A stretch of DNA of 64,000 nucleotides from a virus. The notes below the pieces were generated by a model, which saw nothing but the letters and a program-made list of their open reading frames with translations, had not been told where the DNA came from and did no database searches. The stretch lies in the IMG/VR virus record IMGVR_UViG_3300031977_002889; one strand, written 5' to 3'. The translations under genes and the position numbers were made by a program. Shown here one piece after another: positions 36,313 through 59,106 of the stretch; the first letter of the stretch is position 1, and the number at the start of each line of letters is the position of its first letter.

Positions 36313-36895
36313 CTAAGCTAAACATTAATGCAATTCGTGGTTTATTAGACATATTCATTACAGCATGTGGATATCCGATATTAAGAAAATACGCTTGACC
36401 GTTTTCTAAATTATAAGCTTCTAATTCACCATCGCGTCGAAATACATTGACCACATTTCTATCGCCATAAATTGGACAAATGCAACGAACAGCATATGAT
36501 ACATCATAATCAACATGAAATGGAATCGCTTTACCGGGTGCTAGCTTAGTAATTCGTATACGACTTGCTGGTGCTTTTAATTGAGTTACAATTTCTTCAA
36601 AATAACTGTTAGTATAATCTTCTGTTGGAATATTATAAAGATGTTCTTCTTTACGACGCAATCTTTCTTTAATGCTTGCCGTGTGTGGTAAAATTTCACT
36701 TGGAGTTGTTAAATTGATTTGTTCGAAGTTATCATACACCTGACCTACTAGTTCCATATGATTATCACACAGCATAGGATTAGCTGTACGAACATCAGTA
36801 AATTTTGTTGCCAATTTATCTGTAGCTTTTTGTAATTTATCTAAATCAATATTTAGATTAAAATTTTTAACTGTCGGTAAATTTTGTTTTCTCAT
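36284..36895 (-). CDS. Aspartyl/asparaginyl beta-hydroxylase-like oxygenase
   Basis: RIRITKLAPG, HVD, FLNIGYPHAVMN...RIAL. Confidence 0.8.
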   Translation of the reverse strand: MRKQNLPTVKNFNLNIDLDKLQKATDKLATKFTDVRTANPMLCDNHMELVGQVYDNFEQINLTTPSEILPHTASIKERLRRKEEHLYNIPTEDYTNSYFEEIVTQLKAPASRIRITKLAPGKAIPFHVDYDVSYAVRCICPIYGDRNVVNVFRRDGELEAYNLENGQAYFLNIGYPHAVMNMSNKPRIALMFSLDGTDDLETG

Positions 36896-37659: not shown

Positions 37660-38185
37660 AATGGTTTCCTTCAAACGGAGCAAATAAATTAATCCACCAT
37701 TTATTTACTGGTCCTTTTTTTGAATGTCCTAATAAATTTAGCATTCCATAAAACACATACGAATATATATATACTAACAAAAAATGGTAAAAAAAGCCAT
37801 AATATAATGCAATCATCCAAGTTACTGCCATTGTCATTAAACCATACTTATGAAAAAACATTATTCTTGGATTTTGATATAAATCTTTTACAAATTTTCG
37901 CGGGATATTTTTTATTCTCCAAGTTGAGAACAATATTTGATGCCATTTTTTATATAATGGACTATGAGGATCTTTAGGAGTATCTGAATATGCATGATGC
38001 ATTCTATGAATTCCAGACCAACTTAATGCGGACTGACCTCCACATAATACACCGCAATAAAGCATAATACATTGTCCTATAGGAGATACTTTTATTTCAC
38101 CATGTGAGAAACAACGATGATAGCCAAACGTAATACCTATAGAAGCTAAGATATAATATAAGATATAAGATTCAATGAATACCAT
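37640..38185 (-). CDS. Membrane fatty acid desaturase (delta-9-like)
   Basis: His boxes HRCFSH, HRMHH, HYDHH; DPHSP; TM segments. Confidence 0.9.
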   Translation of the reverse strand: MVFIESYILYYILASIGITFGYHRCFSHGEIKVSPIGQCIMLYCGVLCGGQSALSWSGIHRMHHAYSDTPKDPHSPLYKKWHQILFSTWRIKNIPRKFVKDLYQNPRIMFFHKYGLMTMAVTWMIALYYGFFYHFLLVYIYSYVFYGMLNLLGHSKKGPVNKWWINLFAPFEGNHYDHHKR

Positions 38186-38202
38186 AATACAATTCTCCAA
38201 AA

Positions 38203-41903: not shown

Positions 41904-42605
41904 TTATTTTTTAATGAATTTTCTTATGATTGGAAACACTTTTTCAATCTCTTTGGCACATTCAAGAGCAACTTCACGGTGTTCTTTTTGTGTACCATTT
42001 CCAGATCTTAGTTCGATGTAGTGCATCCATGAACGAATAGTACCATTCATATAAATTCGTGACATCATATTACCTTCAGGCAATACAGCTCGAGCTTGTT
42101 CTTTAGCAATACCATTTTCAATTGCCCACTGATATACTTCTTTAGCTTGATTTATAACCCCGTGTTGTCTACGACCCCACTCAGTAATGAGATCTTGTTT
42201 TTTCAAATCTAATTGAATAGCAGGATCATTTTCGATTTCAATAGAATTTTGACGATTAGTATGGTCTTGAAGGCGAGCTTCACGTTTTACCATATCTAAA
42301 TCTTTAGTTGGATCAGCATATCGTTGACTAAACTCTTGAAAGCTAAAACTTCTATGTCTTAAGATTTGTCTCGCGATGTCTCTTGTTGTTTCAATTTCGA
42401 GGCATGCTGAGACCATTTCGAATGGCGACCAGTGAGATTCTTTGGCAAGGTATGACAAGAGTCTCTCAGCTGTTTTCTTGTTGGATTGGTTGGATGGATT
42501 GGAGACACGGGCGCAATACGCGATGAGATCTTGGGCATCATCAATTCCTATAAAAGCATCTTTTGCGGGTTGTGAATAACTAATTAGTCTTACATTAGGT
42601 TTCAA
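41904..42605 (-). CDS. thyX: Flavin-dependent thymidylate synthase
   Basis: ARVS, HWSPFE, RHRSFSFQEFSQRY, EQARAVLP, TQKEHR. Confidence 0.97.
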   Translation of the reverse strand: MKPNVRLISYSQPAKDAFIGIDDAQDLIAYCARVSNPSNQSNKKTAERLLSYLAKESHWSPFEMVSACLEIETTRDIARQILRHRSFSFQEFSQRYADPTKDLDMVKREARLQDHTNRQNSIEIENDPAIQLDLKKQDLITEWGRRQHGVINQAKEVYQWAIENGIAKEQARAVLPEGNMMSRIYMNGTIRSWMHYIELRSGNGTQKEHREVALECAKEIEKVFPIIRKFIKK

Positions 42606-43966: not shown

Positions 43967-44306
43967 TATACCCTACCGTTTCTCTTACTATATCGTTATG
44001 ATTAAACTCAGCCCAATAGAGTTCGTAAGCAACACCAGACTCTAAACATTCAAACTGATGATAGAGGCCTGGTTTGACTTTATGATAATCACCTTCTTGA
44101 AGAACTGTAACATCAACTAAATCATAGTCGCGTTGCCAGGTACGAATAAGCATGCTACCTGATTCAACATAAAATCCATTCCATTTATAACGATGTAAGT
44201 GTTTAGAGCATACGCCACCTTCTTCCATTTCAATACGATGAAACTCTAAAGCACCATTTGCTTCAATCAATTCCGTCGTTCCCCAAACTTTACCTGCTTT
44301 CATCAT
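43959..44306 (-). CDS. Cupin domain protein
   Basis: KVWG, CSKHLH..KWNGFYVESG, PGLYHQF. Confidence 0.75.
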   Translation of the reverse strand: MMKAGKVWGTTELIEANGALEFHRIEMEEGGVCSKHLHRYKWNGFYVESGSMLIRTWQRDYDLVDVTVLQEGDYHKVKPGLYHQFECLESGVAYELYWAEFNHNDIVRETVGYIE

Positions 44307-44811: not shown

Positions 44812-45140
44812 TATACATAGGCCTTACCTAGTAAATTTTCTGCTGACCAACGGGCTTCCCAATCTCCAATCCATTCAATTTTCTTTTCTCTTGACCAACC
44901 AGCCAGATAATCATTGTCTCTGTCAAATAGTTTTAATACTTCTTCTTCTGACATTAACTGTGTATCAACAATGTTTTCATTTAAACAAAGTTGGCTGAAC
45001 TCTTCAGCTTCATTGCAAGTCACAGAATCTTTAATAAAAGTTTCTGGATCACAGTCTTTGATGTCACTCGTAGGAATGACATATCTTGTTCTAAACTGTA
45101 GAACCGCGGTTAACACTACATAATCACTCATTTCGCTCAT
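44811..45140 (-). CDS. Hypothetical protein
   Basis: EFSQ, FDRDNDYL. Confidence 0.6.
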   Translation of the reverse strand: MSEMSDYVVLTAVLQFRTRYVIPTSDIKDCDPETFIKDSVTCNEAEEFSQLCLNENIVDTQLMSEEEVLKLFDRDNDYLAGWSREKKIEWIGDWEARWSAENLLGKAYV

Positions 45141-45798
45141 TCCATTTCCTCGCATCTTCAGGTGTATTAATTTCTATTCCATTCCATTCTACCTCATTTA
45201 CACCAATTTGTACACCGTTTTTTATCCATCTTAATTGTTCTAATTGTTCAATTTGTTCTTCAGGATATTTTACATATGACCAATATTTAGCAAGTACTTC
45301 TCTTGTATATCCATACACACCTAAATGCCAATCACCATATCCTTTAAATCCTCTTCCAAACCATAAAGCTCTATTTTCAAATCGAATTAATTTTACCGTA
45401 TTAGGATCATTTTGTAATTCTTTAGGCATTTTAGTATAGACAGTAGATACATGATAAAACCCTAATAAATCTATACAACCTTCAATACAATCAGATGTTA
45501 CGTCAGGCATATCACCTTGAACATTAATAAACTGATCGTATCTTCTTAATAAAGGTATGGCTCCACTACATCTTTCAGTTCCATTTTTGTAATTAGCATT
45601 TTCAACTCTACAATTATTATCATTAAAACGTTCTGCTATACTCCAATCGTCTGTTAAAACATATGTATCAAGACCTGTTTTAGCACATACTTCATATACA
45701 CGCTTTATCATTGGAATACCACCCAAATTTACAAGTGGCTTTCCAGGAAATCGACTAGATTTAAATCTAGCTGGAATAAGAATAGCGGTCGATGTCAT
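45124..45798 (-). CDS. kdsB: CMP-Kdo synthetase
   Basis: IPARFKSSRFPGKPL, GTER, NVQGD, HLGVYGY, EQLEQLR. Confidence 0.92.
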   Translation of the reverse strand: MTSTAILIPARFKSSRFPGKPLVNLGGIPMIKRVYEVCAKTGLDTYVLTDDWSIAERFNDNNCRVENANYKNGTERCSGAIPLLRRYDQFINVQGDMPDVTSDCIEGCIDLLGFYHVSTVYTKMPKELQNDPNTVKLIRFENRALWFGRGFKGYGDWHLGVYGYTREVLAKYWSYVKYPEEQIEQLEQLRWIKNGVQIGVNEVEWNGIEINTPEDARKWNERNE

Positions 45799-46525
45799 TT
45801 ACTACACTTTCAAAATCTTCTAGTCTTAGCATATTTGGTCCATCACTTGGTGCATTATCTGGATCTGCATGTACTTCTAAAAAGAAGTTGCTAATACCCA
45901 TAGCACTGGCAGCCCGAGCAAGACCTGGAACGTAATCACGATTACCGCCACTTGATTTCCCATTGCCTCCGGGTTTTTGGACAGAGTGCGTAACATCAAA
46001 AACAATAGGATTGTCATAGTTAGCAAGCATATACTGAAGGCCAGTATAGTCAACAACAAGATTATTATACCCAAAACTAGTACCTCTTTCTGTAATCCAA
46101 ACTTCTTTCGCGTTTTTAGTTTTACTTAATATGCCAGCAACATCCCAAGGTGCTAGGAATTGTCCCTTTTTAATATTAACTATGCAATTTGATTTACAAG
46201 CTTCTACAATTAAATCAGTTTGTCTACATAAGAATGCTGGTATTTGTAAAACATCAACTACACCTTTACATCTACTTATTTGTCCTACAGTGTGAACATC
46301 GGTTAATATTTTAAAACCAGCGTCTCTAATTTTTTGAAAGTCAGGCAGTGTGTCATCAATACCTACACCACGCTTACCAGACATGCTGGTGCGATTTGCT
46401 TTGTCAAAGCTTGCTTTAAATATATATTCAATTTCATATTTATCACAAACATCTTTACAATGATTAGCAATTTCTAAAGATTGCTCAAGAGACTCATGTT
46501 GACACGGTCCTGCTATTATCCGCAC
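45767..46525 (-). CDS. kdsA: Kdo-8-phosphate synthase
   Basis: AGPC, KASFDKANRTS, QIPAFLCRQTD, NIKKGQF, ERG, DVTHSVQ, SDGPN. Confidence 0.96.
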   Translation of the reverse strand: MRIIAGPCQHESLEQSLEIANHCKDVCDKYEIEYIFKASFDKANRTSMSGKRGVGIDDTLPDFQKIRDAGFKILTDVHTVGQISRCKGVVDVLQIPAFLCRQTDLIVEACKSNCIVNIKKGQFLAPWDVAGILSKTKNAKEVWITERGTSFGYNNLVVDYTGLQYMLANYDNPIVFDVTHSVQKPGGNGKSSGGNRDYVPGLARAASAMGISNFFLEVHADPDNAPSDGPNMLRLEDFESVVNDIDRYSYSS

Positions 46526-47827: not shown

Positions 47828-48583
47828 TTATACTGGAATCCCTTCGAATTGATTATTCATAATAAATTGCTTTACGTCTACTTTTGGTTTCCAACCAAAT
47901 TCTTCTTTCATATGAGTATTATCAGCAGTATTGTTTGGAGCTTCACAAGTAGCACCTTCTTTTATAGGTACGTTATATCCAGCCAATTCTGCCAAATCAG
48001 ATACAGTATTACCCACTCCAGTACCAATATCGTAAGCGCGCTGTTGTGGTTCATTGTCAGAATTGATAATAGCCAATATCGCTGAGACAACATCACTAAC
48101 GTGAATAAAGTCACGCACGTGATTAGTACTATACTCAAGATTGCTTGAAAGAAGCCTACCCATGAACATAGTATCGCGAGCACCATCACCATACACAGTT
48201 GTAAAGCGAAGCGCTGTTTGTCTAGCTCTTGCAGTTTCTTCGTTAACTTTCTTTGTTGTTCCATAAGGAGATAACCACCATCTGTGAATACAGGATGAGG
48301 AAGCATACAATAATGGTACATTATTCTTCCTACAAATTTGTTGTATTCGAGTTGTATTTTCTACATTGTTTTTCCAATATTCTTGTGGATAGTCAATGCT
48401 ACGTCTTACGTCGGCTTGTGCTGCTAAATGAATTACCCAACTTACACCAGAAGGTAATTCAAAGTGATCGATATGTCTTTCAATCTTTCGATCCCACTGA
48501 TCTACAACATGTCCAGCTGCAATCAGTTCCTTTACTAAATGGGATCCAATGAACCCATGTGATCCAGTTACTACAATTTTCAT
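47828..48583 (-). CDS. NAD-dependent nucleotide-sugar epimerase/dehydratase
   Basis: TGSHGFIG, HLAA, ASSS, YGTTK, RDFIHV. Confidence 0.9.
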   Translation of the reverse strand: MKIVVTGSHGFIGSHLVKELIAAGHVVDQWDRKIERHIDHFELPSGVSWVIHLAAQADVRRSIDYPQEYWKNNVENTTRIQQICRKNNVPLLYASSSCIHRWWLSPYGTTKKVNEETARARQTALRFTTVYGDGARDTMFMGRLLSSNLEYSTNHVRDFIHVSDVVSAILAIINSDNEPQQRAYDIGTGVGNTVSDLAELAGYNVPIKEGATCEAPNNTADNTHMKEEFGWKPKVDVKQFIMNNQFEGIPV

Positions 48584-48621
48584 TTAAGAATCCTCTAATA
48601 TTAATGAAGCTATTTATGCTA

Positions 48622-49659
48622 TTATACCATAAATTCATCTAATAGTACACTCTTTTCTGGTGGTCGACCTTGTCTTTGTGCCCATCCTGATACCCAACCA
48701 GAATTATTTTGAATATTAGCAGAGATATGGTCAAACGTATCGTCATTTCGTGGTACATAATTTTGACCAAATCGAACAAAGTCACATAAAACATCTTCAT
48801 TATCTCGTGGTGCCCCACCCATACGTTCACATAATATATCCATAAATTTATCAGTACTATATCCGCTTGACATCATTTTCATACACCTAACGGCATTATT
48901 ACCAAAATATCCATGAGACTGATCATCTACAAGATCTTTATGATAATCACCCAAATCATATGAAAAAGCAGCATAAACAAAGTTAAATTTTCTGTGTCCC
49001 TGTTCAGCATTATATGCATTTAAAAAATCTGTAACTTGTTTATGTGTTTTCTTTTGGCCACTATGTAACCAATCAATGAGTCTATCTAAAAGATGTGGTA
49101 ATTCTTCAGTAAGATAATCAATAACACTTACACCTTTACGAGGAGCTGGAGGTTGGTTTCCAATTGAAGTGAAAGTTGGAATCTTATTTGCTTTACGGTA
49201 TTTAAGATCAGCACTCATTTCTTCAATTGATTCTAAAACTCCCCATTTATGAACACAATTATTTCTATAACCATGATCTCTTGTAAATGATGCTCCAGAT
49301 CCTGTGGCTCTATGACACATATAAGCAAATAACCACGTTTTAAGATCCCATTTTTCAGTGATATAGCTATCAACCAAATCTACGTGTTTTTGACCTAAAG
49401 ATTTATTCTTTAATTGATGATGTCTTTTTGGTGTTTCACTACGATACCTTAAATCTTGTAAAACATTTGAAAAACCAGCAGCATCTCTTGTATAACAATC
49501 GTAAATATCAATCTCTTGCATAAGATCGTCATTTATTTCTTTATTTGCTATTTCACCTGTATAAGGAATTTTTCCCCAGTTACAATTAATTTGTAACCAC
49601 TTGGCTCTTGGATAATAATAATCTACTAAAATATCAATTGCTTTTTCATTAAGCCACAT
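48622..49659 (-). CDS. HhH-fold DNA base-modification protein (5hmdU-kinase/aGPT-Pplase-like), paralogue A
   Basis: DDLMQEIDIYD..R, F..AAF..DL, GNNAVRCM, DNEDVLCDFVR follow the family pattern DDPIL..F.NV.R / GPGA.RG / D.E..LCE..K as recalled. Confidence 0.55.
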   Translation of the reverse strand: MWLNEKAIDILVDYYYPRAKWLQINCNWGKIPYTGEIANKEINDDLMQEIDIYDCYTRDAAGFSNVLQDLRYRSETPKRHHQLKNKSLGQKHVDLVDSYITEKWDLKTWLFAYMCHRATGSGASFTRDHGYRNNCVHKWGVLESIEEMSADLKYRKANKIPTFTSIGNQPPAPRKGVSVIDYLTEELPHLLDRLIDWLHSGQKKTHKQVTDFLNAYNAEQGHRKFNFVYAAFSYDLGDYHKDLVDDQSHGYFGNNAVRCMKMMSSGYSTDKFMDILCERMGGAPRDNEDVLCDFVRFGQNYVPRNDDTFDHISANIQNNSGWVSGWAQRQGRPPEKSVLLDEFMV

Positions 49660-50533
49660 TCTTCGCCCACTCCCTATATGAATCTATAGTATCTGCTAAT
49701 TCTAAATTTTGTAAAATTGGTTCTTTTCCTACATTCCAAAAGAGAATGTCTTTATCAGTATTTTTAGGAATATACTTCCATACTTTGCCATCGTAAGTAT
49801 CTATAGTCGGAAAAGGTGGTAGGTTTTCTTTTTTCTCTGCTTGTAAAAATGCAAGAGGTTCAGATATAGGTTTGGCAATTCCAAGCTCTCCAGCTTTCAT
49901 ATTACGAGATACACAAACTGAATGAAACTTTGCATTTGGCCATGCAATTTGAAGGGCACGAGTAAGTACACCTGTTGATGTAGCAGTATAAACTTCTTCT
50001 GGTTCTCGTATCTTCGAAGCTGTCTTTACAATACCAGCTGTGACCATTTCATGTTTCAATCCAAGTGGTACAAAGAAAGCATTTTTTCTTTCAGAAGCCC
50101 ATTTCTTTGCAATGGCATTTAGATTTGGCATAGCAGCTATTCTATGAAATTGGAATTTAGCTCCTCGTTCAATACAACAGGCTTGATGATGACTAATCTT
50201 TTTTGATGAAGGCATAAAAAGCATGACATCTTTACCATGTCGTTTTGCTACGTCAAGTATACTAACACCAGCAAGACCAGTCCGAGGTTGAACATAGACG
50301 ATAGTATCGATTCGAGAATCGAGGCTACTAATAAGACAATCACCGCCACGAACTTTAGAACCCACAAGATAGTCGTCACGAACAACTCGTACACCATCGT
50401 GCATATTAACCACTGGTTCACCATAAGGATCTTCCCAATCTTTTGCTAAATCTAAATAATATTCTTTTGGATCTCCATAGAATGGGTTTATATCTTTATT
50501 AATTCCATCTATAACATGATTTTTAAACGCCAA
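49649..50533 (-). CDS. PLP-dependent enzyme, fold type II (Trp synthase beta/ACC deaminase-like)
   Basis: RDDYLVGSKVR, ATSTGVL phosphate loop, YDGKVW, LFWNVG; TTG start with GGGGAG RBS. Confidence 0.8.
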   Translation of the reverse strand: MAFKNHVIDGINKDINPFYGDPKEYYLDLAKDWEDPYGEPVVNMHDGVRVVRDDYLVGSKVRGGDCLISSLDSRIDTIVYVQPRTGLAGVSILDVAKRHGKDVMLFMPSSKKISHHQACCIERGAKFQFHRIAAMPNLNAIAKKWASERKNAFFVPLGLKHEMVTAGIVKTASKIREPEEVYTATSTGVLTRALQIAWPNAKFHSVCVSRNMKAGELGIAKPISEPLAFLQAEKKENLPPFPTIDTYDGKVWKYIPKNTDKDILFWNVGKEPILQNLELADTIDSYREWAKNVA

Positions 50534-51479
50534 GAGGTGATACTCCCCAATCGTTTCTTCTATGAAAAGGAGGAGCAATATGTACACTTCCACCATGTTC
50601 CATATAAGTATTCGCATATTTTTCTGGATCCATAGTATACCAATGTTCAGGTGGCATTACTACTTTACCTTTTGATTCATTATGTAGTATTTCAATAAAA
50701 CGATTTGTTAAATCATATCGTTCTTTCCATGATCCAAAGAATGGTGTCTTTTTAAAATAACCAGTTTTAGGTAATTTACGACCTTCATATTCTACTGGAA
50801 CAGGTGCCGTAAACCAAACATCATCTCCAAGTTCATTACCTTGACGAACATATTCTTTTAAAGTTTCTTTTAAATCGAAATCAGAATGACGCAATATATG
50901 GTGCCTAATATCAATAGAACCGAGGCATATAGTAAGTCTATGTACGGATTCTTTGAAGTCTTCTCTGAGTCCTCTTCTAAGAGATCCATAAAGAGTTTTA
51001 CCATCAGTACGGTACACACGGTCACCAGCAGCGCTAAAAGCAATTGTATGAGAATCTCCATAGGTAATTCCATCTGATTTAATATTTCTTTGTGTTAAAA
51101 AAGGAATATATTTTATTCTTTCAGAAACCATATCACACCACTTTTCAGTGATGCCTTCATATGTAGTATTATTACCTATACGAACTTTTAACATAGCTCC
51201 ATAGTCTGGCATATCGCAATCAAGTGACGTGATATTGTTACACGCTAACAACGTGTTTATTTTATCAAATATTTCTTTTGTAGCTCCACCAAATAAATTA
51301 AGTGTCCCACCAAAATTCACGCCATGATCAACATAAACTTGATCGGCTTTTAGAATATTAGCAGAACACTTATGATCTATTGCGGCATTTAGTTGGTTTT
51401 GCCAAATTTGTGTCCATCCTAAAACATGTGACTTTTCAGTTTTAGGAATATTAGTGATAGGATTCGTTATGACTTTCAT
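50523..51479 (-). CDS. Two-domain protein: N-terminal unknown domain plus SGNH hydrolase/acyltransferase-like domain
   Basis: GDSH (block I), LGSIDIRHH (block III), SVH (block V); N-terminal LNLFGG. Confidence 0.55.
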   Translation of the reverse strand: MKVITNPITNIPKTEKSHVLGWTQIWQNQLNAAIDHKCSANILKADQVYVDHGVNFGGTLNLFGGATKEIFDKINTLLACNNITSLDCDMPDYGAMLKVRIGNNTTYEGITEKWCDMVSERIKYIPFLTQRNIKSDGITYGDSHTIAFSAAGDRVYRTDGKTLYGSLRRGLREDFKESVHRLTICLGSIDIRHHILRHSDFDLKETLKEYVRQGNELGDDVWFTAPVPVEYEGRKLPKTGYFKKTPFFGSWKERYDLTNRFIEILHNESKGKVVMPPEHWYTMDPEKYANTYMEHGGSVHIAPPFHRRNDWGVSPLGV

Positions 51480-52446
51480 ATACTGACCTCAAGCTGAAAT
51501 CCTTTGGAAAGATCCATTCATATGGAATTCTTTTCGTAGGTGATTTTACTCCATGATTAATAGCAATATGCTTATAAAAGAAACATGTCTTATCTTCTAT
51601 GTTCAAGAGCTTTTGCTCTTTAATTGGATTCATAGGATGATTAGACAATATCTCCATTTGTTCTAGCCATATTCTACCATATTCGTTAGTAGAAGTAAAC
51701 AGTCCATTTTCATCTATTTCGTATTTTACTTTACTCATTAAATTTTTACCACCAAATATTTGGTGCATACCATCAAAGTGACCAGTACCTCCAAATAAAA
51801 CAGATTCTGGATCACATACATTAGGATATGCCATAGCAATATAACGAGCAAAGTTTTTACATGGATACATAGGATTTCTAAATCCTTGTTCCTTCGCAAA
51901 ATACTGTGCCATTTCTTTTGCAAGTTCCATCATAGTCCAAGGTCTATTTTTAGAACTTAAAATATGACCCATATCTTCAGCAGCTTGTTTTGGTCCAGTT
52001 AATAACCATTCACGAACGTTAGTGCCTTTAGGATAATAGATTTGAAATAAATCGTTTCGAGCATGTCTATGATGCTCAAATCGTTCTTTTAGTCCTTGTA
52101 CACCATGATTCATTAGAGTTGTAAGTGTTAACCAATGTTCATTAGTAAAACTAAAAACAAGAGTATACCACATACGATGAAAATCATCGGTTACATCTGA
52201 CATAATATCACAGAATGGATGTTCATGCCAGTGTAACCGATGTGAAAAGATTTGATAATCTTGTTTGAGTAGTGTATCTTGTCTTTGATCGAACTTACGA
52301 CAAAACTCAAAAAACTTTTCGAATCTTTGTTCTTGAGTCCAATCTTTCATCCAACTATCAACAGGTTTTCCTTTTTTATTAAGGTCTACTACTGTTGTAT
52401 TTTCATATAAGATATCATATTCATTAGGCGATAAGTTCATAATCAA
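51451..52446 (-). CDS. HhH-fold DNA base-modification protein, paralogue B
   Basis: D.LL..DYQIFSHR, GGTGHFDGM, NIEDKTCFFYKH parallel the motifs of 48622-49659. Confidence 0.5.
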   Translation of the reverse strand: MIMNLSPNEYDILYENTTVVDLNKKGKPVDSWMKDWTQEQRFEKFFEFCRKFDQRQDTLLKQDYQIFSHRLHWHEHPFCDIMSDVTDDFHRMWYTLVFSFTNEHWLTLTTLMNHGVQGLKERFEHHRHARNDLFQIYYPKGTNVREWLLTGPKQAAEDMGHILSSKNRPWTMMELAKEMAQYFAKEQGFRNPMYPCKNFARYIAMAYPNVCDPESVLFGGTGHFDGMHQIFGGKNLMSKVKYEIDENGLFTSTNEYGRIWLEQMEILSNHPMNPIKEQKLLNIEDKTCFFYKHIAINHGVKSPTKRIPYEWIFPKDFSLRSVYESHNESYH

Positions 52447-52457
52447 AGAGTTCTTTT

Positions 52458-52709
52458 TTAGTAACCACCATTATAAGTTTGTTCAGCTTGCAGATGAGCC
52501 ATATCAACTTCAAGTTTAGTAATTCGTTCTTTTAATTCAATTATTTCTTGTTTCTTTTCAAGTTCTTCTTGTGCTTTTAATTTAGCATCTTCTTCACGAC
52601 TTCGTCTCATCATATAATCGTAGTATGGTTCACGATAATACGTAGTATCCATGTATGTTTCATCATCTTCGTTATTCGTGACTTTTCTCAGTTTTTGCAA
52701 TAAGTTCAT
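52458..52709 (-). CDS. Hypothetical coiled-coil protein
   Basis: Intact ORF. Confidence 0.55.
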   Translation of the reverse strand: MNLLQKLRKVTNNEDDETYMDTTYYREPYYDYMMRRSREEDAKLKAQEELEKKQEIIELKERITKLEVDMAHLQAEQTYNGGY

Positions 52710-53130
52710 ATTTAACTCCTGCTTCTTGAAATAATTGTTTTGTTAACGACCATGAGTCGCGCCACCGCTCATCTACATCAGCTCGCATCACGACTCTTTT
52801 TACTCCAACTTGAATTACACCTAAGGCACAATTCGAACAAGTTGGTAAACCAGTTACATATATGGTTGATCCATCTAATGAAACACCATTGAAACCAGCA
52901 TTATAGATGCAGTTCATTTCAGCATGAACCACCAATTTGTATTTTTTTTCTCTATCTGTATACCTCTCATTTGAATCTATAATATTACGCGGAAATCCAT
53001 TATAACCTTGAGCTAATACTTGGCCTTTATTACCAATAGCAACAGCTCCAATTTGCCGCGATGGATCTTTAGACCATGTAGCAATATGCTCAGCAAGATC
53101 TAAATATCGATAATCCCATTTACTTAACAA
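52672..53130 (-). CDS. cd: dCMP deaminase
   Basis: SKDPS, GYNG, HAEMN, TCSNC zinc motifs. Confidence 0.92.
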   Translation of the reverse strand: MLSKWDYRYLDLAEHIATWSKDPSRQIGAVAIGNKGQVLAQGYNGFPRNIIDSNERYTDREKKYKLVVHAEMNCIYNAGFNGVSLDGSTIYVTGLPTCSNCALGVIQVGVKRVVMRADVDERWRDSWSLTKQLFQEAGVKYELIAKTEKSHE

Positions 53131-53815
53131 GGTGAAAATGCCTTTCATAAACATGTAGATTTTGAACTTGCCAAACAATATGACCAAGCTCTATTTTATC
53201 TCCGCCATCATACATGTTTAATCCATTATAATCCATGATCAAACGATTCATCACTGCAAGTTGCCAAGCATAATCATTTTTATAACCATACACGACATCA
53301 TTACTCCGCATTTGAACTACAGAGTGTAAAAGATTATCTCGTATGTAATAAGAAACGGCATTGGTACAGATGAAATCGTTTTTACCATTTTCGTTATATT
53401 CCAACCAAATAGATGGACGATTATAGATCATAGTAGCTCTACGACCGTCAGGATTTAACATTAATTCATCGAGTACATTTCCGTACTGGTTATAATATAT
53501 ATCATCAAAAATCAGTTTTCCGTAATTAGAATTGATTTCTCCATGAGTATTTGCCGCATATTTCCAAGCAGCAGGAGCATCAGCGCCAGACTCTTTGTTA
53601 ATATCATAGATATTTGTTGATTGTGAATCATACCACGCAAGTTCTTTTGCGATATATTCATCGTTAGGCGTACCAAAAATAGATGGTTCATCTGCTATAA
53701 ACTGAGCACCAATTAATTCAATTGTTTTTTGACCAGTTTTATCAGTTGTGAATGCTTTATCGCTTAATTCGCCAATAAAATATTCACGGATATCATGTAC
53801 ACTATTTATTTTCAT
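53120..53815 (-). CDS. 42: dCMP hydroxymethylase (T4 gp42 orthologue)
   Basis: DKTG.KTIE.IGA.F.ADEP.IFG, GEINSNYG, DFICTN, MRSNDVVYGYKNDYAWQ, LHVY; retains the Asp (T4 D179) that specifies dCMP. Confidence 0.85.
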   Translation of the reverse strand: MKINSVHDIREYFIGELSDKAFTTDKTGQKTIELIGAQFIADEPSIFGTPNDEYIAKELAWYDSQSTNIYDINKESGADAPAAWKYAANTHGEINSNYGKLIFDDIYYNQYGNVLDELMLNPDGRRATMIYNRPSIWLEYNENGKNDFICTNAVSYYIRDNLLHSVVQMRSNDVVYGYKNDYAWQLAVMNRLIMDYNGLNMYDGGDKIELGHIVWQVQNLHVYERHFHLVK

Positions 53816-53827
53816 GGTTATATTCTA

Positions 53828-54649
53828 TCACATATCTTTCTTAAAGTAAACAATATTTTGTTCTTTTTCTCGTTCATCTCGTTCATATTGTGCTCTATAC
53901 TTATTGTTTGCCTTAATAACTTCTTCAATGATTGAAAGAACTCCAAGACCTGCGGTTTCAACAATTGCTTTTGTATCTTTTGGAAAACACGCTCCACCAA
54001 AACCTCTTTTATTGTCAAATCCTGGAACTTTAGTATGACCATGACCAATTCGCTTATCAGATCCAACTGCATTGAATACTACAGAAGGATTGGCATCGTA
54101 TTGTGCACAAAGATCGTACATTTGATTGAAAAATGTTACTTTAGTTGCTAAGAAAGAATTAATAGTATATTTAACTAAAGAAGCTTCAATCATAGTCATA
54201 GTAAAAAACGATGCAGGATTACATAAACTATAACCTACATATAAATCTATAACATCATCTACAGCTTCAACTGGTCCACCTAAAATATGGAATTGTGGAT
54301 TAATAAATTGTTCTGCTGCTGATTTTTCAGTAAGAAATTCTGGATTATACACCACATCTGGATGCATCATCTCTTCGATAATATGTGGTGGAACAGTAGA
54401 TTTTAGAATAATTTTTGCTGGAAAATCATTTGAGAGTAATTCTTCCATGACTTCTCGAACGATACTAAAATCATCCATTGGTGTTGGAACACAAACGAAA
54501 ATATAATCTGTATCATCGTCAATGTCCATAATTTCAGTGCCAAGTTTTGGATCGATATGTTGTTGAATCACATGAGGATGATTAAATCCATACGCAACTG
54601 CACCACCAACAAAACCTAATCCAACGATAGCTATTTTTTGTTCGTGCAT
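53828..54649 (-). CDS. UDP-glucose/GDP-mannose dehydrogenase family protein (short form)
   Basis: GLGFVG, CVPTP, KSTVPP, NPEFL, GFGGACFPKD. Confidence 0.9.
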   Translation of the reverse strand: MHEQKIAIVGLGFVGGAVAYGFNHPHVIQQHIDPKLGTEIMDIDDDTDYIFVCVPTPMDDFSIVREVMEELLSNDFPAKIILKSTVPPHIIEEMMHPDVVYNPEFLTEKSAAEQFINPQFHILGGPVEAVDDVIDLYVGYSLCNPASFFTMTMIEASLVKYTINSFLATKVTFFNQMYDLCAQYDANPSVVFNAVGSDKRIGHGHTKVPGFDNKRGFGGACFPKDTKAIVETAGLGVLSIIEEVIKANNKYRAQYERDEREKEQNIVYFKKDM

Positions 54650-55065
54650 TCCGAAACTCTCATCCTTAAATCGCTTGTCGAAAAGCGATGATCTCTCTTG
54701 TTGAAGTAAAGTTGTATTCCCCTTTTCCTGCATTCGTCTTTTCCTGTGAATTCTTTATCCCGATATTCTTCACCGAGTATTCGAATATCAATAGGATACA
54801 TGTTGAGAATGTCGAGTAAATCATTTTCAGTCGTATATACGACTACTTCATCGACATATTTAATTGCTGCTAATTGTGCCTGCCTCTCAACAACAGTTTG
54901 TACAGGTGTATTTTTTAATCTACGATCAATTGAAGGATCCACCTGTAATCCAACAATAAGATAATCGCAAACCGATTTTGCTTCACGTAACATTGCGACG
55001 TGGCCAGCATGTAATAAATCAAATGTACTACAAGTAAAACCTATAGTGACTTTAGAGTATTCCAT
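54631..55065 (-). CDS. TagD-like glycerol-3-phosphate cytidylyltransferase
   Basis: FDLLHAGH, RDHRFSTS. Confidence 0.85.
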   Translation of the reverse strand: MEYSKVTIGFTCSTFDLLHAGHVAMLREAKSVCDYLIVGLQVDPSIDRRLKNTPVQTVVERQAQLAAIKYVDEVVVYTTENDLLDILNMYPIDIRILGEEYRDKEFTGKDECRKRGIQLYFNKRDHRFSTSDLRMRVSECTNKK

Positions 55066-55772
55066 GTATGTTTCCAATCCATAACTGTAAATGATTTGCC
55101 GCATGGCATTTCATTCACTGCATCATAAATTTCAGCGTCATTACCACCAAATTGTGTTTTATCGCCAAAGAAATATATATTATCGTAATGTTCGAAGTCT
55201 TTTAGGATCTGAGCTTTGTTACAACCTAATGGTGTAATATCAATTCCAGTTTCACCAGCCACTTTAAATTCAATATCTTTAAAATGTTCTCTAAGCCTAT
55301 GCGCAATCTTATCTCTATCTTGATTTAATCTATCATATTCAACATACATCTTACGTTCACCAAGAGTACAATTACGACCGACTATACTAAAATTAAGCAA
55401 ACCTACTCGTTGTTCAATATGATTACCAGTTCGAAGTGGAAATTTATTTTCTCTTAATTCAAATTCCAAAATACGAATAAGGTGATCAGATGCTTTCCAA
55501 TCACTATCACTTATACAAATATTTTTTCTAAAAACTTGAGCACCAGAACATTGGTAAACACGTTTACACAATTCGTAAATATATTCACCAACTTGTTCAA
55601 CGGTTTTTGGTTTATCACTGCCAGTTACAAGATAGACTTCGTTCTTTTCGGCGAACTTAGAAAACCATACAGCGAATTTTTTATCCATACGTCCACGGCT
55701 TGGAGTTAACGTGCCGTCTACGTCAAAGATATATTTACTCTTCTGCTTGCGATTTACGTGTGGTATTGACAT
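55041..55772 (-). CDS. HAD-IIB phosphomannomutase-like enzyme
   Basis: FDVDGTLT, VTGSD, NFSIVGRN, FFGDK..GGND. Confidence 0.85.
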   Translation of the reverse strand: MSIPHVNRKQKSKYIFDVDGTLTPSRGRMDKKFAVWFSKFAEKNEVYLVTGSDKPKTVEQVGEYIYELCKRVYQCSGAQVFRKNICISDSDWKASDHLIRILEFELRENKFPLRTGNHIEQRVGLLNFSIVGRNCTLGERKMYVEYDRLNQDRDKIAHRLREHFKDIEFKVAGETGIDITPLGCNKAQILKDFEHYDNIYFFGDKTQFGGNDAEIYDAVNEMPCGKSFTVMDWKHTWNTLKSL

Positions 55773-56100
55773 TAATTGGCCTATTCAAAAAATCACGACC
55801 TGGTTCTTGACCATCCATACCACCTTGCATATAGGCTGCAAAGAAGGATGCATAGTTAATCATATCTATACACGAATCTTCGAGCGATTCAAAATTCGGT
55901 GCGTAATCGGGATCACTTTCCATTGCTTCAAGTACTGACTGCATACGTAAAATCTTGGCATGCATGATATCAAGAATGGTTGCGCAACCACGTGGATAAT
56001 ACATGGCTTGACGAATACGTGAATTTGGATTTTGGTAATCGTTACCTTTTTTATTCTGAATTTCAGCTGCTTTTTGCAGGATCTTTAAGCTTTCTTTCAT
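55735..56100 (-). CDS. Nucleotide-modification-associated domain protein (Nmad1/DUF1599-like)
   Basis: KKGNDY, K..R, EDS.IDMINYA. Confidence 0.7.
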   Translation of the reverse strand: MKESLKILQKAAEIQNKKGNDYQNPNSRIRQAMYYPRGCATILDIMHAKILRMQSVLEAMESDPDYAPNFESLEDSCIDMINYASFFAAYMQGGMDGQEPGRDFLNRPINVNTTRKSQAEE

Positions 56101-56354
56101 TAACAAACTTCCCAACCTAAGTTATCTGCAACCCAATCGTTGCCTTTATCTTTTGCAAGAGCACATACTATTTGTTCACGAGGCTCTGTATCCATATCAT
56201 TAATTGTATTAACGGCATTTTCTATATTGCCAAGAGAAATTTGAACGTCAACAAATTGAAACGCTTTTAGATCATCAAGATAAAGATCTTTCAAATCTTT
56301 GTCTTCAATTGAGTAGCTAAATGTTTGATCGATAAGAGTTTTAACGGCGTTCAT
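56100..56354 (-). CDS. Early hypothetical protein
   Basis: Follows the repeated leader; MDTEPRE motif. Confidence 0.65.
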   Translation of the reverse strand: MNAVKTLIDQTFSYSIEDKDLKDLYLDDLKAFQFVDVQISLGNIENAVNTINDMDTEPREQIVCALAKDKGNDWVADNLGWEVC

Positions 56355-56358
56355 AGTA

Positions 56359-56450
56359 TTCTCCTTCATTTGATATATCTATCCTACCATAACCAGAATA
56401 CATTGTACATGTTTTTGTTTCATTTAAAATCAATAACTTATCATTTTTTT
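56359..56450 (-). promoter_or_regulatory. Repeated early promoter/leader, copy 4, with upstream IHF-consensus site
   Basis: CATGTACA-N-TGGTAGGAT-N-ATATCAAATGAAGGAG; AATCAATAACTTA at 56428-56440. Confidence 0.8.
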
Positions 56451-56939
56451 TGGTCTGTAATAATAACCATCATACTGGCTTTTTTGCATTTTAAGCAAAA
56501 CCGTATTAGCTTCTTCATAAGCAAAGAACGCATGTGGTACAACTTGACCAACTTCAAACTGCTCTTTAGTATCGATAGTAGTGTAAAATAAAAAATGAGT
56601 AAGTTCTCCTTGAGAAACTCGAGATTTCATCATATCTAATTTTTGCTCTGCAGTTTTACCATCACGTGACTTGCTTCGCGTTATATTATAGTTAATACTT
56701 TCTAGTCTTTTAGCATCAATAAAATGATCAAGAATTCTAAAATCATGTTTATAATTATTTGGCATTTTTACTAAAGGTTTGTCAGCACCATAAAGTAACC
56801 ACCATTCAAGTAAAAGATAATCACAATGCTTTCTATTTACAAATCCTCCTTCGTCATGTAGTTGATCAGCATAATTACAGAAGTCTTGAGTAACTACAAT
56901 GTCACGAGTTACTAAATTAGAAAGTTGATTAATCATCAT
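56430..56939 (-). CDS. Hypothetical protein, possible PD-(D/E)xK fold
   Basis: HDFRILDHFIDAKR. Confidence 0.45.
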   Translation of the reverse strand: MMINQLSNLVTRDIVVTQDFCNYADQLHDEGGFVNRKHCDYLLLEWWLLYGADKPLVKMPNNYKHDFRILDHFIDAKRLESINYNITRSKSRDGKTAEQKLDMMKSRVSQGELTHFLFYTTIDTKEQFEVGQVVPHAFFAYEEANTVLLKMQKSQYDGYYYRPKKMISY

Positions 56940-57645
56940 TACCTCCAGAAAATGGCCATTTTGGCCTTTTCAGAACATGTTTATCAGACTGCCATAATCT
57001 TCGAAGAGCTGCTTTTTTTAAATCAGCAGATTCTATATGAGTTATAGGATTTGAAAAAGTCATTACTGATAATACAGAACCAGCTTTAAAATGATATTTA
57101 CCAGGAGAAAAAAATGCTATCGTATTTAATGGCATAGCTTTACATTCAACTAAACCCGGTGACACTTTATATGGTACATCATTCCAATAAAGCGGATCTA
57201 TAAATTGAACTAAAGTATTTTTTACATTGATATGACAATCAAATTCAAATTTTATTGCAACGTAATTTCCTGGCATTCCTTGAAGTTGACCAGATCCATG
57301 GTGAGTTATACTTTTTAAAACTGTATATCTGCTTTTTGTTTGGTATTTGTAATCTAGATTTTCATCTATCTCAAGTAAAATATCACATGGAAATTTAATA
57401 GCAACTGAATGTTTAAATAGTGTATTAAATCCTGGACAAGACTTCGAAGTTTTTACAGACTCAGGAATAAAGTGCATCAAATCATTCCAATATTTTCTTA
57501 TATAATCAGGAACAGATTTGGCCTCATTATGTGTAATAACGGGTTGAGTTGTAAACCATTTCGGTTTTTCTAAAGAAAGAAATTCTCCCTCTATACTATG
57601 ACCAACGTGAGTCATATCACCTATACAATATTCTAATTTAGACAT
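56929..57645 (-). CDS. Hypothetical protein
   Basis: T.K.CPG, H..GQ, PG.V motifs. Confidence 0.55.
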   Translation of the reverse strand: MSKLEYCIGDMTHVGHSIEGEFLSLEKPKWFTTQPVITHNEAKSVPDYIRKYWNDLMHFIPESVKTSKSCPGFNTLFKHSVAIKFPCDILLEIDENLDYKYQTKSRYTVLKSITHHGSGQLQGMPGNYVAIKFEFDCHINVKNTLVQFIDPLYWNDVPYKVSPGLVECKAMPLNTIAFFSPGKYHFKAGSVLSVMTFSNPITHIESADLKKAALRRLWQSDKHVLKRPKWPFSGGNDD

Positions 57646-58564
57646 TTTTATACACATACTCCAAAGCTCTATCTGCTTCTTTTTCCATTGGTCGATTTTC
57701 ATACCAATTACCAGTTTCGATATCAAGTTCTCTACACATTGCAGTGATTTCTTGACATGTAATTGGATAATTATTCTTCACAGCATTACCAGCAATGGCA
57801 ACCATAATTTGGTACATCTTATGATACCAACCAGTATTATTAATTAAACGATATTCGGATTCCAAATTTTTAGGAAAGAATGGACAGTCACGATATGATG
57901 ACCAATTAAAATTAGTATTATCAAGTTTGGCTTTACGATGCTCTACAATTTGTGCTTGAATTTCTTCTGGTAATCTATCAAAGAAATTATTGCCGCTTTT
58001 AATTGGAGCTGGATGTTTAGCCATTAAAACATCAGGATCTATAGCCATACCAGTATGATCAAAAATAAAGTTGAAAGCAGACTTGTACGTGCCAGGGATA
58101 TAATACATTCGTGAATAATCTTTAGTCTGTTTATCTCCAATCGAACCGAGTTCGGTATTGAGGGCGTACCAGAAAGCTCGGATGTTATCTGCTTTAACTC
58201 TTTTCGTAAGTGGGAACACAAGCCTAAACTTAGGATAATCTTCTCGACTGCTAGCAGTACTATAGCAAATAAAGCTGAACTTATTATATAAGGCAACCAA
58301 CTCATTTTGTAGATCTCCTTCAAACTTGTGGTCATCAACATCAACAGCACACCAACCACCCCAATCAACTACATTGGCATTAGCTCGAGTTGTATTGGGG
58401 TGGTAAGTGGCAGGAGATATTAGTTGTGCTTCTTCTTTAGATTCACGAGGCACTTTAGCGAGATCGTATAACAAATGTTTGAACTGGTCAAAATTGTCCA
58501 AGTCCATACGACGATGTGTCTTATTGTCAAATACGCTTTTAAACAGCGTTAGAGAGATCTCCAT
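57638..58564 (-). CDS. AEP/Prim-Pol-like primase domain protein
   Basis: WCAVDVDD, YSTASS...KFRLVFPL, D..R..Y.P; helical C-terminal domain. Confidence 0.7.
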   Translation of the reverse strand: MEISLTLFKSVFDNKTHRRMDLDNFDQFKHLLYDLAKVPRESKEEAQLISPATYHPNTTRANANVVDWGGWCAVDVDDHKFEGDLQNELVALYNKFSFICYSTASSREDYPKFRLVFPLTKRVKADNIRAFWYALNTELGSIGDKQTKDYSRMYYIPGTYKSAFNFIFDHTGMAIDPDVLMAKHPAPIKSGNNFFDRLPEEIQAQIVEHRKAKLDNTNFNWSSYRDCPFFPKNLESEYRLINNTGWYHKMYQIMVAIAGNAVKNNYPITCQEITAMCRELDIETGNWYENRPMEKEADRALEYVYKNV

Positions 58565-58952
58565 GATTATCCTCGTGATTAGGACCTTTCCACCCACCGG
58601 GTTTCAATAGATCAGGTAAACCAAATCGATTTGGCCGACCAGGTTTTATACCAGCCTTTTTATCCATATTGGCACGATAAATTTCATCCCACGCTTTATG
58701 AGCATCTACTCCAAAAACGTCTAATGTACCAATAGCGAAAACACATAGATCAATTAAACCATCTACGATTTCTTCTTCATCGCCATTATTAATAGCTCCA
58801 AGAGTTTCGTGTAACTCTTCATTAATCATTAACATACGAAACATAAGATACTTACGCATAAGATCTTTGTTGTCTTTGTTATTTTCAAACCAATCATGTA
58901 CACCATATTTCTGGTGCATTTCATTGATATCTTTTACCCAATTTTCACTCAT
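58539..58952 (-). CDS. MazG-like/all-alpha NTP pyrophosphohydrolase (candidate dCTPase/dUTPase)
   Basis: EELHE, EEIVDGLIDL, ANMDK, KP.GW..P. Confidence 0.8.
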   Translation of the reverse strand: MSENWVKDINEMHQKYGVHDWFENNKDNKDLMRKYLMFRMLMINEELHETLGAINNGDEEEIVDGLIDLCVFAIGTLDVFGVDAHKAWDEIYRANMDKKAGIKPGRPNRFGLPDLLKPGGWKGPNHEDNHGDLSNAV

Positions 58953-58953
58953 A

Positions 58954-59106
58954 TTAAAATACCTGTACTGCGAACGAGATGATCGAGAAAAAGAACAAAA
59001 TTGCGATGTAGATAGTAAGACCAAGAATGACTAATTTACCATTGTCTAAATCTGCGGCTGTACCTTCACCGTATTTGTCTTTAAATGCTTTCAATGTTTT
59101 GTTCAT
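58954..59106 (-). CDS. Small membrane protein (50 aa, not in ORF track)
   Basis: MNKTLKAFKDKYGEGTAADLDNGKLVILGLTIYIAILFFFSIISFAVQVF. Confidence 0.5.
   Translation of the reverse strand: MNKTLKAFKDKYGEGTAADLDNGKLVILGLTIYIAILFFFSIISFAVQVF

What the first reader, a model, noticed from the sequence alone, without database searches (positions are those of the whole stretch)
47828..56100. Candidate undescribed cytosine hypermodification pathway: gp42 linked to thymine-hypermodification-type enzymes
Seen: one contiguous operon with Nmad1, HAD phosphomutase, cytidylyltransferase, UDP-sugar dehydrogenase, a thymidylate-synthase-fold enzyme, dCMP deaminase, two paralogous HhH-fold proteins, an SGNH protein, a fold-II PLP enzyme and an epimerase. 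Established: the TS-fold enzyme matches T4 gp42 closely (MRSNDVVYGYKNDYAWQ vs T4 MRSNDVVFGFRNDYAWQ) and keeps the dCMP-specifying Asp, while dTMP is supplied separately by ThyX. T4 caps 5hmC with alpha/beta-glucosyltransferases, and no full-length copy is visible in this window. HhH-fold kinase/amino-acid:DNA transferases plus PLP enzymes are known from 5hmdU hypermodification (ViI/M6-type). Inference: this phage makes 5hmC and elaborates it by phosphorylation/group transfer, PLP-dependent tailoring and possibly acylation or sugar addition, giving a base I do not recognise from described pathways.
Basis: partly seen in the sequence, partly recalled or inferred. Interest (0 to 1): 0.92.

Follow-up and report, generated by a model that had tools for sequence, protein, structure and literature searches.

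The report
Kinase-free phage cytosine hypermodification cassette
An uncultured T4-like phage makes T4's modified base hydroxymethylcytosine but, instead of T4's sugar-adding enzymes, carries an acyl-enzyme, two relatives of the enzymes that put amino acids on thymine in other phages, and a vitamin-B6 enzyme, so its DNA probably carries a cytosine decoration not yet identified chemically.

Summary
The operon is real. 53120 is a T4 gp42-type dCMP hydroxymethylase (E 5e-69; signature excludes dUMP and 5-hydroxy-dCMP enzymes). 48622 and 51451 are distant paralogues with an HhH fold, nearest in the PDB to the glycine:DNA transferase PaMx11 gp46, and keep its catalytic ExxxC. 49649 is homologous to the DNA decarboxylase M6 gp52. 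50523 has an invariant SGNH-type Ser/His and a weak match to T4 beta-glucosyltransferase's acceptor domain.

No 5-hmU DNA kinase was found here or in 12 related genomes, so phosphorylation is unsupported. The sugar genes are variable, not core. The core is gp42 + 50523 + 48622 + PLP, and 50523 is fused to 48622 homologues in other lineages. In sister phages 50523 stays while 48622+PLP is replaced by another HhH enzyme plus inositol genes.

Best model (about 50%, all chemistry inferred): 50523 O-acylates hmC, 48622 displaces the ester with an amino acid, and the PLP enzyme decarboxylates it. I found no paper on this. The scan noted this cassette before on at least 24 other genomes.

The parts
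53120..53815 (-). gp42-type dCMP hydroxymethylase (D147, C150, D173, D181 = E. coli ThyA 143, 146, 169, 177)
   Evidence: PDB 1b49 E 4.9e-69; signature rules from PMC13326640
50523..51479 (-). Core protein 'SG': N-terminal part weakly like T4 beta-glucosyltransferase's acceptor domain, plus an SGNH-type Ser143/Asp190/His300 domain; proposed hmC O-acyltransferase (activator)
   Evidence: S143, D190, H300 in 84/84 homologues; GDSL hits in 6/33 and T4 BGT hits in 4/33 homologues, all sub-threshold; N-terminal hhalign to T4 BGT 50%, E 1.6e-4; fused to 48622 homologues
48622..49659 (-). Core protein 'X': HhH-fold amino-acid:DNA-transferase-like protein, E288/C292, with a C-terminal tail like the DNA polymerase's clamp-binding tail
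   Evidence: pLDDT 91.5; best PDB match 8z2m Z 8.9, rmsd 3.9, 203 aligned; E288 98% and C292 97% conserved in 80 sequences; tail survey
49649..50533 (-). Core fold-type-II PLP enzyme, homologue of the M6 gp52 DNA decarboxylase (ORF called from 50617; likely start TTG 50533)
   Evidence: hhalign to M6 gp52 96.6%, E 5.7e-10, 221 columns; K88 (ORF numbering) aligns with K36; start site
51451..52446 (-). Optional second HhH paralogue 'Y', E284/C288
   Evidence: best PDB match 8z2m Z 9.2, rmsd 4.2, 226 aligned; motif invariant in 119 sequences; paralogy to X 94.7%; absent from many X loci
52672..53187 (-). dCMP deaminase (feeds dUMP to ThyX); usual neighbour
   Evidence: PF00383 E 4e-17; 32/51 loci
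52458..52709 (-). 83-aa protein of unknown function, not conserved in the cassette
55735..56115 (-). Nmad1-like small protein, frequent neighbour
   Evidence: DUF1599 E 0.025, below cut-off; 23/51 loci
55041..55772 (-). HAD phosphomannomutase-like; accessory
   Evidence: PF03332 1e-31; 4/51 loci
54631..55104 (-). Cytidylyltransferase-like; accessory
   Evidence: PF01467 8e-14; 8/51 loci
53828..54733 (-). UDP-sugar dehydrogenase; accessory
   Evidence: PF00984 1e-19; 9/51 loci
47828..48583 (-). NAD-dependent sugar epimerase; accessory
   Evidence: PF01370 1e-29; 5/51 loci
58539..59024 (-). MazG-like nucleotide pyrophosphohydrolase, candidate dCTP/dUTP scavenger (outside the finding's coordinates; substrate not tested)
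   Evidence: PF01503 8e-10; PHROG 671; 32/51 loci
41904..42605 (-). ThyX, the separate dTMP supply
   Evidence: PHROG 85 E 1e-73

Best explanation
A kinase-free pathway that hypermodifies 5-hydroxymethylcytosine in phage DNA. Step 1 (close homology to a characterised enzyme): gp42 makes 5-hydroxymethyl-dCMP, which replaces C during replication; dCMP deaminase and ThyX supply dTMP. Step 2 (inferred): 50523 binds hmC through its glucosyltransferase-like N-terminal part, and its SGNH Ser-His site O-acylates the hydroxymethyl group, giving an ester leaving group where thymine pathways use a phosphate. Step 3 (inferred from fold and motif): 48622, probably tethered to the sliding clamp, attacks C6 with Cys292, expels the acyl group and lets an amino acid add to the exocyclic methylene; 51451 is an optional paralogue that may add a second nucleophile or sequence context. 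Step 4 (inferred from homology): the PLP enzyme decarboxylates the adduct, giving an amine-bearing cytosine analogous to ViI's or M6's thymines. The likely purpose is protection from host restriction. That these genes hypermodify hmC at all is about 85% likely; this order and chemistry about 50%. The acyl donor and the amino acid are unknown.
For: The gp42 signature is D-D-D in the window and in 70/70 cassette-linked copies, and also in unrelated lineages carrying an SG-X fusion plus PLP. PLP is near X in 51/51 loci, SG in 50/51 and gp42 in 36/51, through several gene orders (loci partly redundant). Seven SG-X fusion proteins exist, and Aeromonas phage 44RR2.8t fuses SG to another HhH domain. 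X and Y both rank PaMx11 gp46 first, followed mostly by HhH glycosylase-fold proteins, and keep the ExxxC whose Cys and Glu are essential in M6 gp51 and ViI gp247. The PLP protein matches M6 gp52 with the Schiff-base lysine aligned. No kinase or T4 glucosyltransferase was found in related genomes while controls rang. Module swap: 175 locus windows have X+PLP, 30 have a different HhH enzyme plus inositol-phosphate synthase, none has both, and both types keep gp42 and SG with its catalytic motifs; on the SG tree the module label needs 4 changes, at least 3 forced by well-supported branches (quick tree). So SG does the shared step and the HhH enzyme travels with the nucleophile-related genes. A polymerase-type tail occurs on 43/87 X and 25/88 SG ends against none in 12 of 13 other families and 1/79 PLP, pointing to DNA as substrate.
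Against: No chemistry is shown. Structural Z-scores of about 9 are modest for helical proteins, and identity to gp46 is 8-10%. X and Y pass neither PF18723 nor PF18724 and show no significant profile match to characterised transferases. Their motif context resembles clade 1 (M6 gp55 type), which was dispensable for transfer in M6. The SG fold was not predicted, and its glucosyltransferase and GDSL matches are sub-threshold. SGNH enzymes are often hydrolases. Aeromonas phage 25 has SG without a detected HhH or PLP partner, next to sugar genes. Some X loci lack the PLP gene. This phage's own genome is not held, so a kinase or glycosyltransferase outside the window is not excluded. No T4 gp1-type dNMP kinase was found in 4 relatives, leaving the route to hm-dCTP unexplained.
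Confidence: 0.5

Rival explanations
1. Same genes, different order or acyl group: 50523 installs an aminoacyl or acyl group that stays in the final base (or is rearranged by 48622), or the PLP enzyme makes a free amine before transfer rather than acting on DNA.
For: SG occurs without a detected HhH or PLP partner in Aeromonas phage 25 and Tenacibaculum phage PTm1. The PLP protein mostly lacks the clamp-type tail (1/79). SGNH-fold aminoacyl and acetyl transferases exist (own knowledge).
Against: The PLP protein's nearest characterised relative acts on DNA (M6 gp52). SG is kept when the amino-acid module is swapped for an inositol module, which fits a shared activation step better than a specific final group.
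Confidence: 0.2
2. One reading: hmC is phosphorylated by a kinase encoded elsewhere or too divergent to detect, 48622/51451 transfer an amino acid, and 50523 acylates the finished amine as PaMx11 gp48 does.
For: All characterised transferases of this fold need 5-phosphomethyl-dU (PMC8989533). The window's full genome is not held. An acetylation step ends the PaMx11 pathway.
Against: No kinase was found in 12 related genomes, two of them complete, with positive controls, nor in any locus. SG is also kept in the inositol module, where no amine product is expected. SG is fused N-terminally to the HhH enzyme.
Confidence: 0.14
3. The operon's nucleotide-sugar genes (mutase, cytidylyltransferase, dehydrogenase, epimerase, nearby KdsA/KdsB) supply a sugar or polyol that ends up on hmC, possibly acylated by 50523.
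For: These genes are in the operon and are common among the closest relatives (12-15 of 27 SG-anchored loci). A polyol variant of the cassette exists. Phage 25 has UDP-galactopyranose mutase beside SG.
Against: They are present in only 4-9 of 51 X-anchored loci and change position. No glycosyltransferase was identified in the cassette, and no T4 glucosyltransferase in relatives. They do not explain the PLP enzyme.
Confidence: 0.09
4. No hypermodification: DNA holds plain hmC, and the HhH proteins are glycosylases or base-binding proteins for repair or host-DNA attack.
For: 8-oxoG, AlkA and queuine-salvage enzymes score within about 1-2 Z units of gp46.
Against: The conserved ExxxC, the M6 gp52-type PLP partner, the SG fusions and the swap with an inositol-supply module have no role in repair.
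Confidence: 0.07

Closest known systems
Thymidine hypermodification of phages M6, ViI, PaMx11, PhiW-14, SP10 (5-HMUDK kinase + aGPT-Pplase2/AADT + PLP decarboxylase; PMC8989533, PMC11472151)
   Same: HhH-fold transferase-like proteins with ExxxC, often as a paralogue pair; a fold-type-II PLP enzyme homologous to M6 gp52; a thymidylate-synthase-family hydroxymethylase nearby.
   Different: The precursor enzyme has the dCMP signature, not dUMP. No P-loop DNA kinase was found. An SGNH-type protein is the constant partner instead. X and Y fall outside Pfam PF18723 and PF18724.
T-even 5hmC glucosylation (gp42, gp56, alpha/beta-glucosyltransferase)
   Same: gp42 orthologue with the full active-site signature, in a gene block between DNA polymerase and UvsX, where T4 has gene 42 and b-gt; 50523's N-terminus weakly resembles beta-glucosyltransferase residues 54-100.
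   Different: No alpha- or beta-glucosyltransferase in the window or in relatives; dTMP comes from ThyX; no gp1-type kinase found in 4 relatives.
Arabinosyl/glycosyl-5-hydroxycytosine of RB69, DLP3, RL38JI (PMC13326640)
   Same: A gp42-like enzyme embedded among nucleotide-sugar genes.
   Different: Those synthases have Asn at ThyA position 169; this enzyme and all 70 cassette copies have Asp. No DNA glycosyltransferase was found.
Aeromonas phage 44RR2.8t ORF233 (uncharacterised; cultured)
   Same: SG domain 31% identical, fused to an HhH domain; gp42 with the same signature; no kinase or T4 glucosyltransferase found.
   Different: Its HhH domain is of the other type (related to the inositol-module enzyme); it has no PLP homologue and sits beside a sodium/sugar-type symporter.

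Membership tests
T4 gp42 dCMP hydroxymethylase | Full-length homology to gp42 with catalytic Cys | tested here: met
   1b49 E 4.9e-69, residues 6-230; C150 = T4 C148
T4 gp42 dCMP hydroxymethylase | Asp at ThyA-177 (dCMP), acidic residue at ThyA-143, Asp (not Asn) at ThyA-169 | tested here: met
   D181, D147, D173; rules in PMC13326640; 70/70 in linked copies
T4 gp42 dCMP hydroxymethylase | Makes 5-hydroxymethyl-dCMP in vitro | not testable with these tools
   needs an assay
5-hydroxy-dCMP synthase (RB69 gp48 type) | Asn at ThyA position 169 | tested here: not met
   Asp173
Thymidine hypermodification (5-HMUDK/AADT) system | dUMP hydroxymethylase or TET/JBP source of 5hmU | tested here: not met
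   the linked synthase has the dCMP signature
Thymidine hypermodification (5-HMUDK/AADT) system | P-loop 5-hmU DNA kinase (PF18748) | tested here: inconclusive
   absent from the cassette, all loci and 12 related genomes with positive controls; this phage's own full genome is not held
AADT / aGPT-Pplase2 (PF18724) for 48622 and 51451 | HhH glycosylase-like fold | tested here: met
   top PDB match PaMx11 gp46, Z 8.9 and 9.2, followed by HhH proteins; BFVD matches
AADT / aGPT-Pplase2 (PF18724) for 48622 and 51451 | Conserved catalytic Glu-x3-Cys | tested here: met
   E288/C292 and E284/C288 against gp46 E243/C247; shared with clade 1, so not specific
AADT / aGPT-Pplase2 (PF18724) for 48622 and 51451 | Passes the Pfam profile (PF18724, or PF18723 for clade 1) | tested here: not met
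   no hit for either protein or for 119 Y homologues; no significant hhalign match to gp46, gp51 or gp247
M6 gp52 / ViI gp226 PLP-dependent DNA decarboxylase | Fold-type-II homology with aligned Schiff-base lysine | tested here: met
   96.6%, E 5.7e-10, K88 = K36; ViI gp226 match weak (10.6%)
M6 gp52 / ViI gp226 PLP-dependent DNA decarboxylase | Decarboxylates an amino-acid adduct on DNA | not testable with these tools
   needs an assay
SGNH/GDSL acyl enzyme for 50523 | GDS nucleophile and C-terminal catalytic His conserved | tested here: met
   S143 and H300 in 84/84; motifs
SGNH/GDSL acyl enzyme for 50523 | SGNH fold or passing profile | tested here: inconclusive
T-even hmC glucosylation system | Full-length alpha- or beta-glucosyltransferase | tested here: inconclusive
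   none in the cassette, loci or relatives, with T4 as control; own full genome not held

The most novel reading that the evidence does not exclude
A third general route to pyrimidine hypermodification: a glucosyltransferase-derived, SGNH-type acyltransferase activates hmC in DNA without ATP or a kinase, and interchangeable HhH transferases then attach different nucleophiles. Here the product would be a decarboxylated amino acid, the first amine-bearing hypermodified cytosine, and sister phages would attach an inositol.
Probability: 0.45. Interest if true: 0.88.

Novelty: new variant of a known kind. Interest (0 to 1): 0.72.

Why it matters
Described cytosine hypermodifications in phages are mostly sugars on hmC or hydroxy-C, while amino-acid-derived groups have been described on thymine and need a DNA kinase (PMC13326640, PMC8989533). 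This cassette predicts a new base and new activation chemistry on DNA, and it is widespread: 838 SG, 428 Y and 181 X clusters at 90% identity. It can be tested directly, by co-expressing four genes with a 5hmC source in E. coli or, for the sister module, by nucleoside analysis of the cultured phage 44RR2.8t. An enzyme that acylates or substitutes hmC in DNA could also be useful for 5hmC labelling.

Tried and rejected
BLASTP and shallow-profile comparison of 48622 with 51451 showed nothing; only a deep profile did. tblastn of 48622, a distant homologue and 51451 against cultured phages found no match, so no cultured model of the exact X+PLP type was found. PDB sequence searches for SG and the PLP protein were empty. 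Whole-protein hhalign of SG with T4 beta-glucosyltransferase was weak (0.8% and 16.7%). The 5-hydroxycytosine reading was rejected on the Asp169 signature. P-loop genes near some loci are adenylylsulfate-kinase-like or thymidylate-kinase-like, with no PF18748 hit. The promoter scan gave no excess over shuffles. The SG-X complex prediction was lost on the server and the tool then became unavailable, so there is no result. No whole genome is held. Paper searches for this cassette found nothing. The 2013 Iyer/Aravind paper that defined these families could not be fetched, so a mention there is not excluded. The base-flipping and catalytic roles of T4 beta-glucosyltransferase N70, F72 and D100 are from my own knowledge; no paper was found.

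Full report
Setting and observation. The window is part of a T4-like phage genome: it carries a family B polymerase, UvsX, a gp41-type helicase, a gp32-type protein, ribonucleotide reductase and ThyX. Between the polymerase/primase block and UvsX lie twelve minus-strand genes from 56115 to 47828 with gaps of at most 38 nt. T4 keeps gene 42 and b-gt in the same stretch. Pfam confirms the epimerase, dCMP deaminase, thymidylate-synthase-fold protein, UDP-sugar dehydrogenase, cytidylyltransferase and phosphomannomutase; Nmad1 and PALP are sub-threshold, and 48622, 50523 and 51451 have no family. No whole genome is held.

The precursor enzyme. 53120 matches T4 gp42 over residues 6-230 (E 4.9e-69). 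By the rules in PMC13326640, Asp at ThyA-177 selects dCMP, an acidic residue at ThyA-143 goes with a non-methyl product, and Asn at ThyA-169 marks 5-hydroxy-dCMP synthases. The window protein has Asp at all three positions (D147, D173, D181; catalytic C150), as do 70 of 70 copies linked to the cassette. It is therefore a hydroxymethylase for dCMP.

The two HhH proteins. AlphaFold models are confident (pLDDT 91.5 and 89.2). Both rank the glycine:DNA transferase PaMx11 gp46 first in the PDB (Z 8.9, rmsd 3.9, 203 aligned; Z 9.2, rmsd 4.2, 226 aligned), followed by queuine-salvage and HhH glycosylase structures. These Z-scores are modest, but the ranking is coherent, and viral-structure and language-model searches point to the same superfamily. 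Both keep a Glu-x3-Cys in the last long helix (E288/C292, 98% and 97% of 80 diverse sequences; E284/C288, invariant in 119), matching gp46 E243/C247. The equivalent residues are essential in M6 gp51 and ViI gp247. A deep profile of 48622 finds 51451 (94.7%, E 5.8e-8), so they are paralogues. Neither passes PF18723 or PF18724, and neither matches a characterised transferase by profile. They work like these enzymes by fold and motif but form a separate clade. 48622 ends in a tail like the polymerase's; this pattern occurs in 37/50 polymerases, 43/87 X and 25/88 SG ends, 1/79 PLP ends and none of the other 12 families. By established T4 biology such a tail binds the sliding clamp, which suggests action on new DNA. 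I took this lead from earlier scan notes and tested it here.

The PLP enzyme. Its profile aligns with M6 gp52 over 221 columns (96.6%, E 5.7e-10), and its invariant lysine falls on gp52 K36. M6 gp52 decarboxylates a glycine adduct on DNA (PMC8989533). The real start is probably TTG 50533.

The SG protein. 50523 keeps S143, D190 and H300 in 84 of 84 homologues down to 27% identity. Homologues give weak GDSL hits (6/33) and weak T4 beta-glucosyltransferase hits (4/33). The N-terminal profile aligns with glucosyltransferase residues 54-100 (50%, E 1.6e-4; alpha-glucosyltransferase control E 0.49), placing the conserved N61 and F63 on N70 and F72, which I recall as base-flipping residues (own knowledge). 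This chimera reading, also a lead from earlier scan notes, is suggestive only, because the fold was not predicted.

What belongs together. In 51 X-anchored locus windows with enough flank (partly redundant), PLP occurs in 51, SG in 50, gp42 in 36, dCMP deaminase in 32, Y in 26 and Nmad1 in 23, but the sugar genes in only 4 to 9. The order of SG, PLP, X and Y is shuffled many ways while they stay adjacent. The sugar genes are commoner among the closest relatives (12-15 of 27) but move around, which suggests lineage cargo. Seven proteins fuse SG to X. Two such fusions sit beside a PLP gene and near a synthase with the same three Asp residues in phages of other lineages, one with a family A polymerase.

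What is missing. No 5-hmU DNA kinase and no T4 glucosyltransferase was found in any locus or in related genomes: 12 for the M6 kinase and alpha-glucosyltransferase, 5 for PF18748 and the beta enzyme; two of the 12 are complete. ViI, M6, PaMx11 and T4 rang as controls. A gp1-type dNMP kinase was also not found in four relatives, which is unexplained.

A natural swap. Locus L205 has gp42 and an SG 57% identical to the window's, but no X or PLP. It has instead an inositol-phosphate synthase, a small protein with HAD-like motifs and a different HhH protein that passes PF18723 and is 31% identical to the C-terminal domain of Aeromonas phage 44RR2.8t ORF233. Across all loci, 175 windows have X+PLP, 30 have this enzyme with the inositol synthase, and none mixes them (the sets were gathered by separate searches and are redundant). 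On a quick SG tree the module label needs four changes, at least three forced by well-supported branches. 44RR2.8t has gp42, an SG-HhH fusion and an adjacent sodium/sugar-type symporter. SG is thus the shared step, and the HhH enzyme travels with the genes that supply or tailor a small molecule.

Mechanism. The simplest reading is that SG replaces the kinase. It O-acylates hmC, X uses its Cys to expel the ester and add an amino acid, and the PLP enzyme removes the carboxyl group. Only the first step (hm-dCMP synthesis) rests on close homology; the rest is inference. I put hmC hypermodification by these genes at about 85% and this chemistry at about 50%. The rivals are a retained acyl group or different order (20%), an undetected kinase with late acylation (14%), sugar addition (9%) and no hypermodification (7%).

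Comparison and verdict. The system works like the M6/ViI/PaMx11 thymidine pathways (PMC8989533, PMC11472151) grafted onto T4's hmC precursor, but it is not a member of either: the precursor is cytosine-type, and neither the kinase nor glucosyltransferases were found. I found no paper describing it, though the 2013 paper defining these families was not available. The scan noted the same cassette on at least 24 other genomes and the inositol variant on at least 8; those notes are unchecked and are not counted as support. Verdict: observation confirmed, interpretation partly supported, new variant of a known kind, interest 0.72.

Noticed in passing
L205:1218-7353 and L247-L275: Sister cassette: gp42 + SG + inositol-phosphate synthase + small HAD-like protein + PF18723-type HhH protein, never together with X or PLP; suggests an inositol-bearing cytosine.
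   Followed up: partly
L019:9190-13170 (Aeromonas phage 44RR2.8t ORF234c/233c): Cultured phage with gp42, no T4 glucosyltransferase or DNA kinase found, an SG-HhH fusion and an adjacent sodium/sugar-type symporter; a ready test case.
   Followed up: partly
L020:7364-10635 (Aeromonas phage 25): Same slot holds UDP-galactopyranose mutase, an unannotated 358-aa protein and a stand-alone SG, with no HhH or PLP partner detected.
   Followed up: no
L131:1420-1854 and 28 other locus windows: A small uracil-DNA-glycosylase-superfamily protein (PF03167 E 8e-5) often sits between dCMP deaminase and the cassette; absent from this window.
   Followed up: no
L022:6792-9214 and L023:6378-8696: Homologues of the PLP enzyme lie within an 807-aa gene annotated as DNA methylase in Erythrobacter phage R6L, and follow two ParB-like genes in Microcystis phage Mae-JY30: other DNA-modification contexts.
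   Followed up: no
window 45124-46525 and 43959-44306: KdsA-like, KdsB-like and cupin genes lie just past UvsX and move into the cassette region in some relatives; role unknown.
   Followed up: no
window 24798-38200: Low-GC (27-33%) island of about 20 small metabolic genes, including 2OG-Fe(II) oxygenase-like and nucleotidyltransferase-like proteins; most have no PHROG match among the 10 tested.
   Followed up: no
window 56929-57726 and 56430-56939: Two uncharacterised genes between the primase and Nmad1 that recur sporadically near the cassette in relatives.
   Followed up: no
related genomes of L027, L176, L177, L095: No T4 gp1-type dNMP kinase (PF21448) detected although gp42 is present; how hm-dCMP is phosphorylated is unexplained.
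   Followed up: partly
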